Shown here one piece after another: positions 30,001 to 33,000 of a stretch of DNA of 64,000 nucleotides. The stretch is taken from the NCBI RefSeq assembly GCF_030028105.1, contig NC_092374.1, positions 31,195,016 to 31,259,015 on the forward strand. Direction: 5' to 3'. Source of the stretch: Mobula birostris (lineage: Eukaryota). Numbering within the stretch: position 1 is the stretch's first letter; each line of letters begins with the position of its first letter. Position numbers: made by a program.

Positions 30001-33000
30001 GACTTTATGTTCTTAACATCCAACCGAATCTTATGATCTTAGAAAAGATATAAAGTATGAACACTTACACTTTTGATTGGACCTGACGTGGCCGCTGCCT
30101 GAAAATGCTGAAATTAATTATTAAAAACATGATGACAGCACTTGGAAAGACTGAGTACAGTTACATTGAAAACATGGTATTACAAAGGGAAATTATATTT
30201 ACCAAATTTTTTCGAGCTTTTTCATCTTGTATTGGTGAGATGAATAAAAAGCGACCCAGTAGCCACAGTGTGTTTGGATTTCCAAAGGCTTTTGAAAAGG
30301 TGCCACATGAACGATTAGTGCAAAAAGTAAGAGTTTAGTGGGCTGATGGAAACATGAGTAGTGGGTTGGTTAACGCACTGAAAACAAGGGTTAGAAGTGA
30401 ACAGGCCATTTTCAATATACAAAGTCGTAACTAGTGGGATGATTTCATGATCAGAGCTGTGCTCTCAGCTATTAATGACTAGGGTGAGGATTAAGTACAA
30501 TAAATGCACGATGTATCCAAATGATCAGTAATCTGATAAACAGTAAGCTCCAAGGAGAACACATGAATAAATAATAATAAATAAGGCAAGAAAGCAGATT
30601 AAATAGAGATGGCCAAAGGACTATAATACAGGAAATGTATGAGGATAACTATTTTGGTGGAAGTGGAACACGTTTAAGTGGTGCAAAAGATTTAAGCGTG
30701 AGTGCCCTTGAAGATTAAACATGGAAAGTTAGCATTTCAGGTTCAACAAGTAACTGGGAAGCAATTGAAATGTTGGTCTTTGTTACAAAAGAGATAGAAT
30801 GCAAGAACGGGGAAGTTTTGCTGTAACAGTACATGATGACATTGAAAGCACAGCTGAATTATTGTATTTGGTTTGATCTCCTTATTTAAAGGGCATACCT
30901 TCCTTTAAAATAGTACATTGAAAGTTGTCTTATGTGGAGAGATTGAACAGAATGGGCCTATGTTCTCAAGACATTAGAATAATAAGAGTTGAACATGCTG
31001 AGGCTGAGTGGCCTGTCAGGTCTAGGGGAAGAAAATCTCAAGACTTATTTGCACTTGGAATTCTTTTTCACAGACTATTTGGAAGTTTTGGAATTTTTGT
31101 TCGTCCCAAAGAGTTATGAAGGCTGAGTCATTAAGAATATTCAATGGTAATCAAGAGTTCCGGGAATCAGGCAAATAAATGAACATGAGGCCAAATATCA
31201 GATCAGACAGAATGACTGAGAAGGAACTTTGTGGCCTACACTTCTCCTGATATTTTTATGTTATGATCTTATAGAATGCTCATAAACCCAGTTCCATGAT
31301 AAATTATGGTTCTTGTGGCATCATCTGTCTTTCAATTAACTTAGACCTACACCCTCTGTGCTCTCTGCACTGAGGTAAATTGGTCTTTGCTGTTTAGCCT
31401 GGGCCTCTCACAATTCTGAAGACCTCAGTTAAATCCTTCTTCAGTCTCCAATCCCACCCTGGACCGTTTCTCAGCCTTTTGGCTAGGATCAAGTGTAGTA
31501 TTTGTTCTTATAAATTTAATACCTATCAGGGCAGCATGGTACTGTAGCGGTTAACGTAATGCTACTACAGCGCCAGCGATGCAGGTTCAATTCCCGCTGC
31601 TGCCTGTAGGTTCTCCCTGTGATCGTGTGTGTTTCCTCCACATGCTCCGGTTTCCTCCCACATTGCATGGATTAGTAGGTTAATTGGTCACGTGGGTGTA
31701 ATTGGATGGTGCGGGGTTCACTGGGCCAGAAGGTTCTGTTACCATACTGCTTCTCTATAAATAAAAAAAATAAAATAATTCCCCAGGTCCAATACCATCT
31801 TCATAAAGCTTCTCTGCATCATCTTGAGTACTGTGACTTTCCAGATTTCCAGTGTCCTCTGAGAGAAAGAAAAAGATGTTAGCAAATCTCTATAATAAAC
31901 TTCATGAAATTACATTCCTATATTTGGTGTTCTTGTTGAATAGTTTGCTAACTTCTGCTTTATCTGTCCCGTTCATTGTTCTATGGTTCCTATCGTACAT
32001 TCTCTCAATTTTCTTTTACCATGTGATGTTTGAGTATTCTCCAACCTTCACACATACCTTTAAAACCTTTGATATTTGCAGATCGTGTTGATTAGGATAC
32101 TGACAAAGGGATACTGTAGCAATGGCTTTGTTAGCAGAAATATAAATTATAAAATTCAAGGAAGTTAAGCCAAATCTTGGGCTTTCCATCGAGACAGAGA
32201 ATCACCTGATTCCACTCCAGTTTTGTCAGTTCTGAATTGGACTAACGTGACCAACATAGGAACTGTAGACCCTTCCATAGATGGGATAGAAGGAGCCTGA
32301 TGGGGCAGGTGAGTGAACTTCCGCATTCACCCATGGGTAGCCTTGAGACTCTCAACACCATTCCGAATGCTCATTTGCTACTTTGAGCTGTCATAGGAGA
32401 AGGTTTCCCAGGAGTCAGTAGGGTTGTTGTATTTTCTCAAGGAGACTTTCACCACATCCTTGTCACCTTGTGAAGTAAAAAACAGAAAGTGCAGTAAACA
32501 CTTGCCAGGTGCAGCAGGTTGGGCAGCATCTGTGGAAAGACAAACAGTTCATATCTGAGGTCCAGGACCCTTCGTCAGAGCTTTGAAGGGGGGGGGGGGG
32601 ATAAAAACAAGTTGGTTTTCATTAGGAGAGATTGTGGGGGAAAGACAGGTGAAACAAGGAAAATCTCAATGATAGGATAAATTTACGTGGGCTCATGAGT
32701 GTAGTTACTGGTGCATTAAACTTATTTGTCTATGTAATATGTTGTTAATGTCACTCCCTCACTCCCTCACGCTGGATGAGCCCTGCTAGTCAGGCAGTAT
32801 CCATGGAGGCATTGACGTTTTCATACCGAGACCCTTCCTTAGGACTTCCTTCCAATTCTTATGTTAAAGTGGTAAAGACAGCAATTATGTTACAGAAGGA
32901 GACATTGTAATGGAAGTGAGGAACTGAGATCATGCAAATCAGAATGCAAGAAGTGCCTTTCCTCTACTTGGAAACACAAAGTATCATCAAGAATATTTAG

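What the first reader, a model, noticed from the sequence alone, without database searches (positions are those of the whole stretch)
31463..31778. U2 snRNA 5' fragment fused head-to-tail to a full tRNA-derived SINE
Seen: U2 nt ~1-62 starts at U2 position 1 and includes the branch-point-pairing GTAGTA. After only 4 nt (atca) a complete HE1/V-SINE-like element follows in the same orientation, ending in an A-rich tail. The cassette sits in what looks like a decayed minus-strand CR1. No convincing TSD (ccctgg left vs ccccagg right is weak). Established: snRNA-retroposon chimeras arise by template switching during LINE reverse transcription, and U1/U2-headed SINEs (SINEU) are known from crocodilians. 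Inference: either a one-off template-switch chimera or a member of a U2-headed composite SINE family, which I do not know from cartilaginous fish.
Basis: partly seen in the sequence, partly recalled or inferred. Interest (0 to 1): 0.7.

Follow-up and report, generated by a model that had tools for sequence, protein, structure and literature searches.

The report
U2 snRNA fragment fused to SINE
A decayed copy of the first 62 bases of U2 spliceosomal RNA sits directly in front of a full-length tRNA-derived SINE in a cartilaginous-fish genome, most likely an accident of reverse transcription and of a kind already known from other vertebrates.

Summary
The core observation holds. Window 31463-31524 matches Rfam U2 (RF00004) from model position 1 to 62, at 53.9 bits against a gathering score of 46 and E 6.7e-8. 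Four ambiguous bases follow, then a full-length tRNA-headed SINE (31529-31778) in the same orientation with an A-rich tail.

- **No U2 3' half:** none follows the SINE.
- **U2 piece is rare here:** the window holds 4 full-length copies of this SINE, and only this 1 of 4 carries U2.
- **Possible target-site duplication:** a 9-of-10 direct repeat brackets the whole cassette, though offset from its ends. Only 0.8% of random position pairs score as high.
- **Flanks:** the "minus-strand CR1" around the cassette is not supported.

Best reading: a single retrotransposition in which the reverse transcriptase finished the SINE RNA and jumped onto U2 snRNA. This is the known class of snRNA/SINE chimeras (PMC4476161).

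The alternative is a U2-headed SINE family like crocodilian SINEU. I could not test it, because no eukaryotic genome search was available. It keeps about 0.25 probability.

Verdict: a new member of a known kind, of modest interest.

The parts
31447..31456 (.). Left copy of a 10-bp direct repeat (TCCAATCCCA). It is a candidate target-site duplication enclosing the whole cassette.
   Evidence: best local match between the 20 nt left of 31463 and the 20 nt right of 31778, 9 of 10 identical. 0.8% of 20,000 random position pairs with the same spacing score as high. Six configurations were tried.
31457..31462 (.). CCCTGG, 6 nt between the left repeat and U2 position 1. It could be extra or filler nucleotides, or target DNA.
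   Evidence: It matches CCCCAGG on the right only poorly. CCTGG and CCAGG are reverse complements of each other, which I leave unexplained.
31463..31524 (+). U2 snRNA positions 1-62: stem-loop I, the branch-point-binding GTAGTA (31495-31500) and most of stem-loop IIa. It is decayed.
   Evidence: RF00004, 53.9 bits (gathering 46), E 6.7e-8, ungapped over model 1-62. 53 of 62 positions equal the consensus (my count). Several stem pairs are flagged non-standard. A T4 run lies at 31477-31480.
31525..31528 (+). Junction ATCA. It is either decayed U2 positions about 63-67 or untemplated bases added at a template jump.
   Evidence: the alignment places these bases on U2 with a 3-nt gap and low posterior probability. 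Undecidable from one copy.
31529..31604 (+). tRNA-like head of the SINE: acceptor-like stem 31530-31536 pairing with 31598-31604, and an exact box B at 31584-31594.
   Evidence: weak tRNA-clan match at 31530-31604, 18.6 bits, E 0.98 in a 1-kb search, far below gathering. ARAGORN calls no tRNA; box B matches with 0 mismatches at SINE position 56. A box A-like motif sits at SINE position 12 in 2 other copies with 1 mismatch each; the cassette carries TACTGTAGCGG there, which I compared by eye with the recalled consensus and count as 3 mismatches (the script's own best box A match in the cassette was a different site). The box consensus motifs are recalled.
31605..31756 (+). SINE body with a conserved core (31644-31664). 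It has two short deletions relative to the other window copies.
   Evidence: alignment and profile match to three other copies. The Deu-type label for the core is recalled, not tested.
31757..31778 (+). A-rich, (AAAT)-like 3' tail of the SINE.
   Evidence: The other copies end in similar A-rich or AAAT-repeat tails.
31779..31787 (.). TTCCCCAGG, 9 nt between the tail and the right repeat.
31788..31797 (.). Right copy of the 10-bp direct repeat (TCCAATACCA).

Best explanation
This is a single chimeric retrocopy: one retrotransposition event that copied two RNAs in succession. Steps are marked as shown or inferred.

1. Inferred: a SINE RNA was made by RNA polymerase III from another copy. The SINE is tRNA-headed, probably of the SacSINE1/Deu kind found in cartilaginous fishes.
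2. Inferred from established knowledge: its tail was recognised by a partner LINE reverse transcriptase, probably of the L2 clade, which primed cDNA synthesis on nicked target DNA.
3. Shown: the enzyme reached the true 5' end of the SINE RNA. The SINE part starts where the other three window copies start.
4. Inferred: the enzyme then jumped to a second template. This was either U2 snRNA entered at about nucleotide 62-66, on the 3' side of stem-loop IIa, or a U2 5' fragment ending there. The jump may have added up to 4 untemplated bases.
5. Shown: copying ran to U2 nucleotide 1.
6. Partly shown: the cDNA was joined to the target, leaving a short and imperfect duplication.

The cassette has since decayed neutrally. 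The U2 piece lacks the Sm site and the 3' stem-loops, its remaining stems are broken, and it has no function of its own.
For: - The U2 piece is real and starts at model position 1.
- There is no second U2 piece after the SINE within 31200-32200 at E up to 10, nor anywhere in the window at E up to 1. The SINE therefore did not split a U2 gene or pseudogene.
- The SINE part covers profile positions 1-273, as full-length copies do. Upstream regions of the other copies share nothing with each other or with U2, so 31529 is the natural SINE 5' end.
- Both parts have the same orientation and the junction is 4 nt or less.
- The best flanking direct repeat encloses both parts: 9 of 10, with 0.8% of 20,000 random pairs as good. 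U2 alone has none (98% of random pairs as good) and the SINE alone only a 6-mer (7%).
- Only 1 of 4 full-length SINE copies in the window has the U2 piece.
- Box A lies about 12 nt into the SINE and box B at position 56. By established knowledge, pol III starting from this promoter begins at the SINE's first base and cannot include the U2 piece. The U2 piece also carries a T4 run (31477-31480), which is a pol III stop signal.
- Precedent (PMC4476161, sections 8 and 10 read): U6 chimeras with L2 and with the SINEs Mon-1 (platypus) and AnolisSINE2 (lizard, 6 copies); TSDs of only 1-9 bp with L2; internal entry giving 3'-truncated U5 and U3 parts.
- Precedent (PMC4494074, Discussion read): U1 and U2 pieces joined to Alu fragments in human.
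Against: - The number of loci with this junction in the source genome is unknown. It is the decisive count.
- The flanking repeat is offset by 6 and 9 nt from the cassette ends and imperfect. After allowing for the six configurations tried, it is only borderline.
- Sporadic U2/SINE chimeras are few per genome in the published surveys, so meeting one in a single 64-kb window is itself unlikely. A high-copy family would be met far more easily. This ascertainment argument (my inference) raises the rival.
- The partner LINE was not identified. No LINE 3' end in the window matches the SINE tail.
- Most L2-associated U6 chimeras in platypus have a 5'-truncated snRNA part (PMC4476161, section 10). 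Here the U2 part is 5'-complete and 3'-truncated.
Confidence: 0.62

Rival explanations
1. The cassette is a member of a multi-copy composite retroposon family: a U2-derived head in front of a tRNA/SINE body. The founder arose by the same kind of template jump. The family then spread as a unit, transcribed from a flanking promoter at one or a few master loci, as proposed for crocodilian SINEU.
For: - SINEU shows that U1- and U2-headed short retroposons can amplify to thousands of copies without an internal promoter, with repeated 5' additions of U1 or U2 pieces (PMC4494074, Results and Discussion read).
- Ascertainment (inference): a feature seen in one 64-kb window is far more likely to be high-copy than a handful-per-genome accident.
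- 1 of 4 full-length SINE copies in the window carries the head.
- The cassette's SINE differs from the other three copies by two short deletions, which could mark a subfamily.
Against: - 0 of the 3 other full-length copies has any U2 similarity upstream. The fractions of random windows scoring as high are 0.11, 0.72 and 0.14.
- There is only one U2 match in the window, even at E up to 1.
- The internal pol III promoter lies downstream of the head, and the head contains a T4 terminator.
- Kojima reported no SINEU outside crocodilians (PMC4494074).
- My searches found nothing relevant on this in fishes: 'SINEU' with 'shark', 'U2 snRNA' with 'SINE' and 'shark', and 'U2 snRNA' with 'SINE', 'retroposon' and 'fish'.
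Confidence: 0.26
2. The cassette results from two independent insertions that happen to abut. Either a 3'-truncated, tailless U2 retropseudogene and a SINE inserted one after the other at the same spot, or a SINE inserted into a pre-existing U2 gene or pseudogene.
For: - 3'-truncated snRNA retropseudogenes are the commonest class of snRNA copies in mammals (PMC4476161, section 8 read).
- A 6-mer, AATACC, occurs both near the U2 3' end and right of the SINE tail, which could be read as a TSD of the SINE alone.
Against: - No U2 3' half follows the SINE, so the SINE did not interrupt a longer U2 copy.
- The AATACC repeat is matched by 7% of random position pairs and lies 8 and 12 nt from the SINE ends.
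- U2 alone has no flanking repeat.
- Abutment within 4 nt or less, in the same orientation and exactly at the SINE's natural 5' end, is very improbable for independent events (inference).
- In a genome dominated by stringent L2-type LINEs, tailless snRNA copies were not found (platypus; PMC4476161, section 10).
Confidence: 0.05
3. The chimera formed at the RNA level. A U2 5' fragment was ligated to a SINE RNA before reverse transcription, as proposed for U6/LINE-1. The fused RNA was then copied in one pass.
For: RNA ligation before retrotransposition is discussed as an alternative to template switching for U6/LINE-1 and Alu/LINE-1 chimeras (bioRxiv 10.1101/2025.02.02.635956, passages seen). 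The DNA product would look the same as what is seen here.
Against: No evidence here distinguishes it from a template jump. A primary pol III transcript carries a 5' triphosphate, a poor ligation substrate (recalled knowledge). The U2 breakpoint is not a known processing site (recalled).
Confidence: 0.05

Closest known systems
snRNA/SINE and snRNA/LINE template-switch chimeras: 'Group IV' snRNA pseudogenes of Doucet et al. 2015 (PMC4476161), such as U6-Mon-1 in platypus and U6-AnolisSINE2 in lizard, plus the U1- and U2-Alu chimeras in human cited in PMC4494074
   Same: - The snRNA piece lies in sense orientation directly 5' of a retroposon that keeps its 3' tail.
- The TSD is short or poor, as with L2-type partners.
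- The snRNA part is 3'-truncated, as in U5 and U3 chimeras.
   Different: - The snRNA is U2, not U6.
- The host is a cartilaginous fish. I found no report for that group in the library searched.
- The U2 part is 5'-complete, whereas most platypus U6-L2 chimeras are 5'-truncated.
- The SINE part is full-length rather than 5'-truncated.
SINEU of crocodilians (Kojima 2015, PMC4494074)
   Same: A short retroposon with a U2-derived 5' end and no promoter able to transcribe that end. 5' addition of U2 pieces by template switching is the proposed origin.
   Different: - SINEU families have thousands of copies, poly(A) tails, no tRNA-derived part and a Tx1-type partner with a Mariner target preference.
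- Here one copy is known, the body is a tRNA-headed SINE with an (AAAT)-like tail, and no such target is seen.
SacSINE1-type Deu-SINEs of cartilaginous fishes (Luchetti et al. 2017, PMC5499810, passages seen)
   Same: The SINE part has a tRNA-like head with A and B boxes, a conserved core and a microsatellite-like tail. It is abundant: 4 full-length copies in 64 kb. SacSINE1 relatives are reported in shark, skate and chimaera with an L2 partner.
   Different: No U2 addition is described for SacSINE1; 'snRNA' occurs 0 times in that paper's main text.
3'-truncated 'tailless' snRNA retropseudogenes (PMC4476161, section 8)
   Same: A U2 copy that starts at nucleotide 1 and stops inside the RNA.
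   Different: Those stand alone between TSDs and are made by L1. Here the piece is fused to a SINE and shares its flanks.

Membership tests
U2 spliceosomal RNA (Rfam RF00004), as a gene | Score at or above the curated gathering threshold | tested here: met
   53.9 bits against 46.
U2 spliceosomal RNA (Rfam RF00004), as a gene | Complete RNA with stem-loop IIb, Sm site and 3' stem-loops III and IV | tested here: not met
   Only model positions 1-62 align. The rest of the model is skipped and no 3' half lies nearby. It is a fragment or pseudogene, not a gene.
snRNA/retroposon template-switch chimera (Group IV snRNA pseudogene) | snRNA piece directly 5' of a retroposon, same orientation, retroposon 3' tail kept | tested here: met
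snRNA/retroposon template-switch chimera (Group IV snRNA pseudogene) | One target-site duplication flanking both parts | tested here: inconclusive
   A 9-of-10 repeat encloses both parts, with 0.8% of random pairs as good, but it is offset 6 and 9 nt from the ends. No empty orthologous site is available.
snRNA/retroposon template-switch chimera (Group IV snRNA pseudogene) | Unique locus, or a few loci with different breakpoints | not testable with these tools
   No eukaryotic genome search is available. Within the window it is unique.
SINEU (snRNA-headed SINE class) | 5' region derived from U1 or U2 snRNA | tested here: met
SINEU (snRNA-headed SINE class) | Multi-copy family whose copies share the same structure and junction | not testable with these tools
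   1 of 4 SINE copies in the window has the head.
SINEU (snRNA-headed SINE class) | Poly(A) tail, Tx1-Mar partner and Mariner-N4 target preference, as described for the crocodilian families | tested here: not met
   The tail is A-rich with T interruptions, like the (AAAT)n tails of the other SINE copies. The flanks match no repeat in the window. Partner not identified.
tRNA-derived SINE (SINE2), SacSINE1/Deu-like | tRNA-like head with pol III boxes A and B | tested here: inconclusive
   Box B is exact. The script's best box A match in the cassette is a 2-mismatch site at SINE position 1; the motif at position 12, where 2 other copies match with 1 mismatch, has 3 mismatches by my own comparison by eye. 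The tRNA-clan covariance match is only 18.6 bits and ARAGORN finds nothing.
tRNA-derived SINE (SINE2), SacSINE1/Deu-like | Interspersed multi-copy element with defined ends | tested here: met
   4 full-length copies and 1 fragment in 64 kb, on both strands, with unrelated flanks.
tRNA-derived SINE (SINE2), SacSINE1/Deu-like | Deu core domain and L2-derived tail | not tested
The Deu label is recalled.
   No reference sequence is available to any tool here.

The most novel reading that the evidence does not exclude
The cassette is one copy of a so far undescribed U2-headed SINE family of elasmobranchs. It would be a second, independent origin of snRNA-headed retroposons, after crocodilian SINEU, and the first with the snRNA piece placed in front of a complete tRNA-type SINE, so that its spread would depend on promoters outside the element.
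Probability: 0.25. Interest if true: 0.62.

Novelty: new member of a known kind. Interest (0 to 1): 0.33.

Why it matters
If it is a one-off, it is a clean footprint of template jumping by a stringent, probably L2-type, reverse transcriptase in a cartilaginous fish. It has a full-length donor SINE and a U2 acceptor entered at about nucleotide 62-66. That extends the taxonomic range of snRNA/SINE chimeras documented from mammals to lizard, and it marks the step by which new SINE heads are thought to arise.

If it is a family, it would show that snRNA-headed retroposons are not a crocodilian oddity. It would also sharpen the open question of how such elements are transcribed.

Either way it has no bearing on host gene function that I can see.

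Tried and rejected
- **SINE inserted into a U2 gene or pseudogene.** Rejected. No U2 3' half appears after the SINE at E up to 10 in 31200-32200 or at E up to 1 in the whole window.
- **A hidden, degenerate U2 head or shared 5' leader in front of the other SINE copies.** I suspected this from alignment A1 and tested it. Local alignment of the U2 piece to the 100 nt upstream of each of the 3 copies is matched by 11%, 72% and 14% of about 5,000 random windows. All-against-all blastn of the 300-nt upstream regions gives a best E of 0.37. Rejected.
- **Minus-strand CR1 as host.** My reading of the translated flanks suggested a faint resemblance to the region before the RT domain. blastn against the window's own CR1 copy gave only a 10-mer (E 0.13). 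tblastn with two CR1 protein segments gave nothing below E 0.2. The results for a third query (L2) were cut from the printout and not seen. Not supported.
- **Partner LINE.** No LINE 3' end in the window resembles the SINE tail.
- **Classifying the SINE core from the literature.** A 14-base string of the core was found in 0 papers.
- **Pfam scan.** I scanned 67 of the 196 stop-to-stop ORFs of 75 aa or more, mostly the longer ones, picked by hand without a strict length cut-off. It found only transposon domains and nothing at the cassette.
- **Not attempted:**
  - a protein-database search with the 49-aa ORF spanning the junction, which I judged too unlikely to be informative for its cost
  - a scan of genome contigs, which holds prokaryotes only
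  - the closed collections metagenome contigs and viral contigs
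Full report
**What is there**

I read window 31000-32300 and scanned all 64 kb against Rfam. At gathering threshold there is exactly one match: U2 spliceosomal RNA (RF00004) at 31463-31570 on the + strand, 53.9 bits against a gathering score of 46, E 6.7e-8.

- The printed alignment is ungapped and of high posterior probability for model positions 1-62, which is window 31463-31524.
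- By my count, 53 of 62 positions equal the consensus.
- Beyond position 62 the alignment has low posterior probability and skips most of the model. That part of the 'hit' is spill-over.
- The branch-point-binding GTAGTA is at 31495-31500.
- Several pairs of stem-loops I and IIa are flagged as non-standard, so the piece is decayed.
- A more permissive scan finds no further U2 piece, either in 31200-32200 at E up to 10 (7 matches listed, only one of them U2) or in the whole window at E up to 1 (2 matches, U2 and a sub-threshold mir-789 match).

**The SINE**

From 31529 a SINE follows in the same orientation.

- *Other copies.* A self-search of the window found diverged copies elsewhere, which I aligned (A1). 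A profile built from that alignment finds 4 full-length copies: 54424-54692 (+), 26176-26442 (-), 3612-3876 (-) and 31529-31778 (+). It also finds one fragment at 41776-41878 (+) and two insignificant scraps at E 0.23 and 0.98. The profile includes these copies, so their high scores are by construction.
- *Head.* The head is tRNA-like only weakly. There is a tRNA-clan covariance match of 18.6 bits (E 0.98 in a 1-kb search) at 31530-31604. ARAGORN calls no tRNA in the window. Box B is exact at SINE position 56. A box A-like motif lies at SINE position 12, with 1 mismatch in each of two other copies and, by my own comparison by eye, 3 mismatches in the cassette. The script's own best box A match in the cassette was a different site, with 2 mismatches at position 1. 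The consensus motifs are recalled.
- *Tail.* The element ends in an A-rich, (AAAT)-like tail at 31757-31778, as the other copies do.
- *Type.* The core at 31644-31664 looks to me like the Deu domain, which would make this a SacSINE1-like element. SacSINE1 has a tRNA head, a Deu domain and an L2-type tail, and is reported in sharks, skate and chimaera (PMC5499810, passages seen). That label is recalled.

**The junction**

U2 position 62 is at 31524 and the SINE starts at 31529. The four bases between them (ATCA) may be decayed U2 positions about 63-67 or untemplated bases.

31529 appears to be the SINE's natural 5' end. The other three copies begin at the same profile position (1, 1 and 3), although position 1 was fixed by my trimming of the profile at 31529. 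The independent evidence is that their upstream regions share nothing with each other or with U2.

- Local alignment of the U2 piece against the 100 nt upstream of each copy is matched or beaten by 11%, 72% and 14% of about 5,000 random windows.
- The best blastn E among the 300-nt upstream regions is 0.37.

So 1 of 4 full-length copies carries the U2 piece, and there is no hidden U2 leader in the family as seen here.

**Flanks**

The flanks are single-copy within the window.

- Against the window's own CR1-like copy near 450-1100, blastn of the reverse-complemented flanks gives only a 10-mer (E 0.13).
- tblastn with two CR1 protein segments gives nothing better than E 0.22. The output for a third, L2 query was cut from view.
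- Upstream there is instead a weak plus-strand CR1-like C-terminal remnant at 31008-31142: 34% identity over 47 aa to the other copy, E 6e-4 in a 1.5-kb search.

**Target-site duplication**

I scored the best local match between the 20 nt on either side for six configurations. The null was 20,000 random position pairs with the same spacing.

| Configuration | Best repeat | Random pairs scoring as high |
|---|---|---|
| Whole cassette | TCCAATCCCA (31447-31456) / TCCAATACCA (31788-31797), 9 of 10 | 0.8% |
| SINE alone | AATACC, 6-mer | 7% |
| U2 alone | none | 98% |

- With the 3' boundary of the whole cassette moved 7 nt into the A-rich tail, 66% of random pairs score as high.
- The 10-mer repeat is offset by 6 nt (CCCTGG) and 9 nt (TTCCCCAGG) from the cassette ends. 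After allowing for six tries it is only borderline.
- It favours one event that brought in both parts, but does not prove it.
- The other SINE copies in the window also lack crisp abutting duplications. That fits the short TSDs of 1-9 bp reported for L2-mediated chimeras (PMC4476161, section 10).

**Which organism**

The window is transposon-rich. I scanned 67 of the 196 stop-to-stop ORFs of 75 aa or more against Pfam, mostly the longer ones, picked by hand without a strict length cut-off.

- 4 of the 67 matched RVT_1, one of them below its cut-off.
- 3 matched ALKBH8_N, one of them below its cut-off.
- 1 matched GIY-YIG weakly, below its cut-off.

The LINE reverse-transcriptase ORF at 5988-7022 finds, as its best hit by identity, a protein named from the stingray Hypanus sabinus: 87% identity over 62% of the query. 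All other listed hits, named or unnamed, are at 68% or less, and the named ones are mostly teleosts. I did not pursue it further.

**How it most likely arose**

The anatomy is that of a template-switch chimera:

- The donor RNA (the SINE) was copied to its very 5' end.
- An acceptor RNA (U2) was then copied from an internal point to its nucleotide 1.
- Both have the same orientation.
- There is one set of flanks.

This class is documented (PMC4476161, sections 8 and 10 read):

- U6 chimeras form with L2 and with the L2-dependent SINEs Mon-1 in platypus (40 chimeras with L2 or Mon-1) and AnolisSINE2 in lizard (6 chimeras).
- U5 and U3 parts are 3'-truncated because the switch enters internally.
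- snRNA truncation points cluster in single-stranded segments.

Kojima's Discussion (PMC4494074) cites one and two human copies of U1 and U2 joined to Alu fragments. An RNA-ligation route has been proposed for U6/LINE-1 (bioRxiv 10.1101/2025.02.02.635956, passages seen). It would give the same DNA product, and I cannot separate the two routes.

**Why not simply a family**

The tRNA-type promoter lies inside the SINE, with box A about 12 nt from its start. By established knowledge of type-2 pol III promoters, transcription begins at the SINE's first bases, 66 nt downstream of U2 position 1. The U2 piece also holds a T4 run at 31477-31480. A U2+SINE unit therefore cannot copy its own head from its own promoter.

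SINEU shows that this is not an absolute bar. Those elements lack any recognisable promoter, have about 7,700, 1,600 and up to 1,058 copies per family, and some were transcribed from flanking DNA (PMC4494074, Results and Discussion read). There is also an ascertainment argument, which is my inference: published surveys find few sporadic U2 chimeras per genome, so meeting one in a single 64-kb window is a priori much less likely than meeting a member of a high-copy family. I therefore keep the family reading at about 0.25.

Kojima found no SINEU outside crocodilians as of 2015. My literature searches gave nothing relevant on fishes: 'SINEU' with 'shark', 'U2 snRNA' with 'SINE' and 'shark', 'snRNA-derived' with 'SINE', 'head' and 'retrotransposon', and 'U2 snRNA' with 'SINE', 'retroposon' and 'fish'.

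**What stayed unchecked**

- The decisive count of loci with this junction, and the orthologous empty site, need a eukaryotic genome search. No tool here offers one.
- The SINE's family name, its partner LINE and the nature of the immediate flanks need a curated repeat library.
- The supplementary alignments of PMC5499810, which might have settled the SINE's identity, were closed.

**Verdict**

The core observation is real and well above chance. The most likely explanation is a one-off U2/SINE chimeric retrocopy (0.62). That makes it a new member of a known kind, in a lineage where I found none reported. It is of modest interest (0.33) unless the genome-wide count turns it into a family.

Noticed in passing
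window 54424-54692 (+), 26176-26442 (-), 3612-3876 (-), 41776-41878 (+, fragment): Three further full-length copies and one fragment of the same tRNA-headed SINE. They are only about 69% identical to the cassette's SINE where blastn aligns them. That makes 4 full-length copies in 64 kb, so this is a very abundant and old family.
   Followed up: yes
window about 5538-7499 (+): A LINE with a long open RT ORF (5988-7022; RVT_1 E 4.7e-26), followed by an ORF matching Pfam ALKBH8_N (7026-7499; E 4.5e-13). The best hit by identity is a Hypanus sabinus protein at 87% identity. All other listed hits are at 68% or less, the named ones mostly teleosts. It may be a relatively young element.
   Followed up: partly
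window about 450-1100 (+): A CR1-like LINE copy with frameshifts, stops and what looks like a large internal deletion. The region before the RT domain runs almost directly into the C-terminal region.
   Followed up: partly
window 31008-31142 (+), possibly to about 31285: A weak CR1-like C-terminal coding remnant on the plus strand, about 180-450 nt upstream of the cassette (tblastn E 6e-4).
   Followed up: partly
window 58138-59011 (+) and 61471-62551 (-): Further reverse-transcriptase remnants. RVT_1 has E 4e-7 at 58138-58533 and E 5e-12 at 61904-62551. The match at 61471-62079 is below its cut-off. ALKBH8_N has E 1.4e-5 at 58496-59011.
   Followed up: no
window 8106-8420 (+): A weak GIY-YIG match: E 0.0052, 17.5 bits against a cut-off of 22.6. 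It could be a Penelope-like element remnant or chance.
   Followed up: no
window 44908-45007 (+): A sub-threshold Rfam match to mir-789: 32.7 bits against a gathering score of 100, E 0.023. Most likely chance or a repeat-derived hairpin.
   Followed up: no
window 31457-31462 and 31783-31787: CCTGG to the left of the cassette and CCAGG to the right are reverse complements. They form a 5-bp inverted repeat just inside the 10-bp direct repeat. It is unexplained and may be chance.
   Followed up: no
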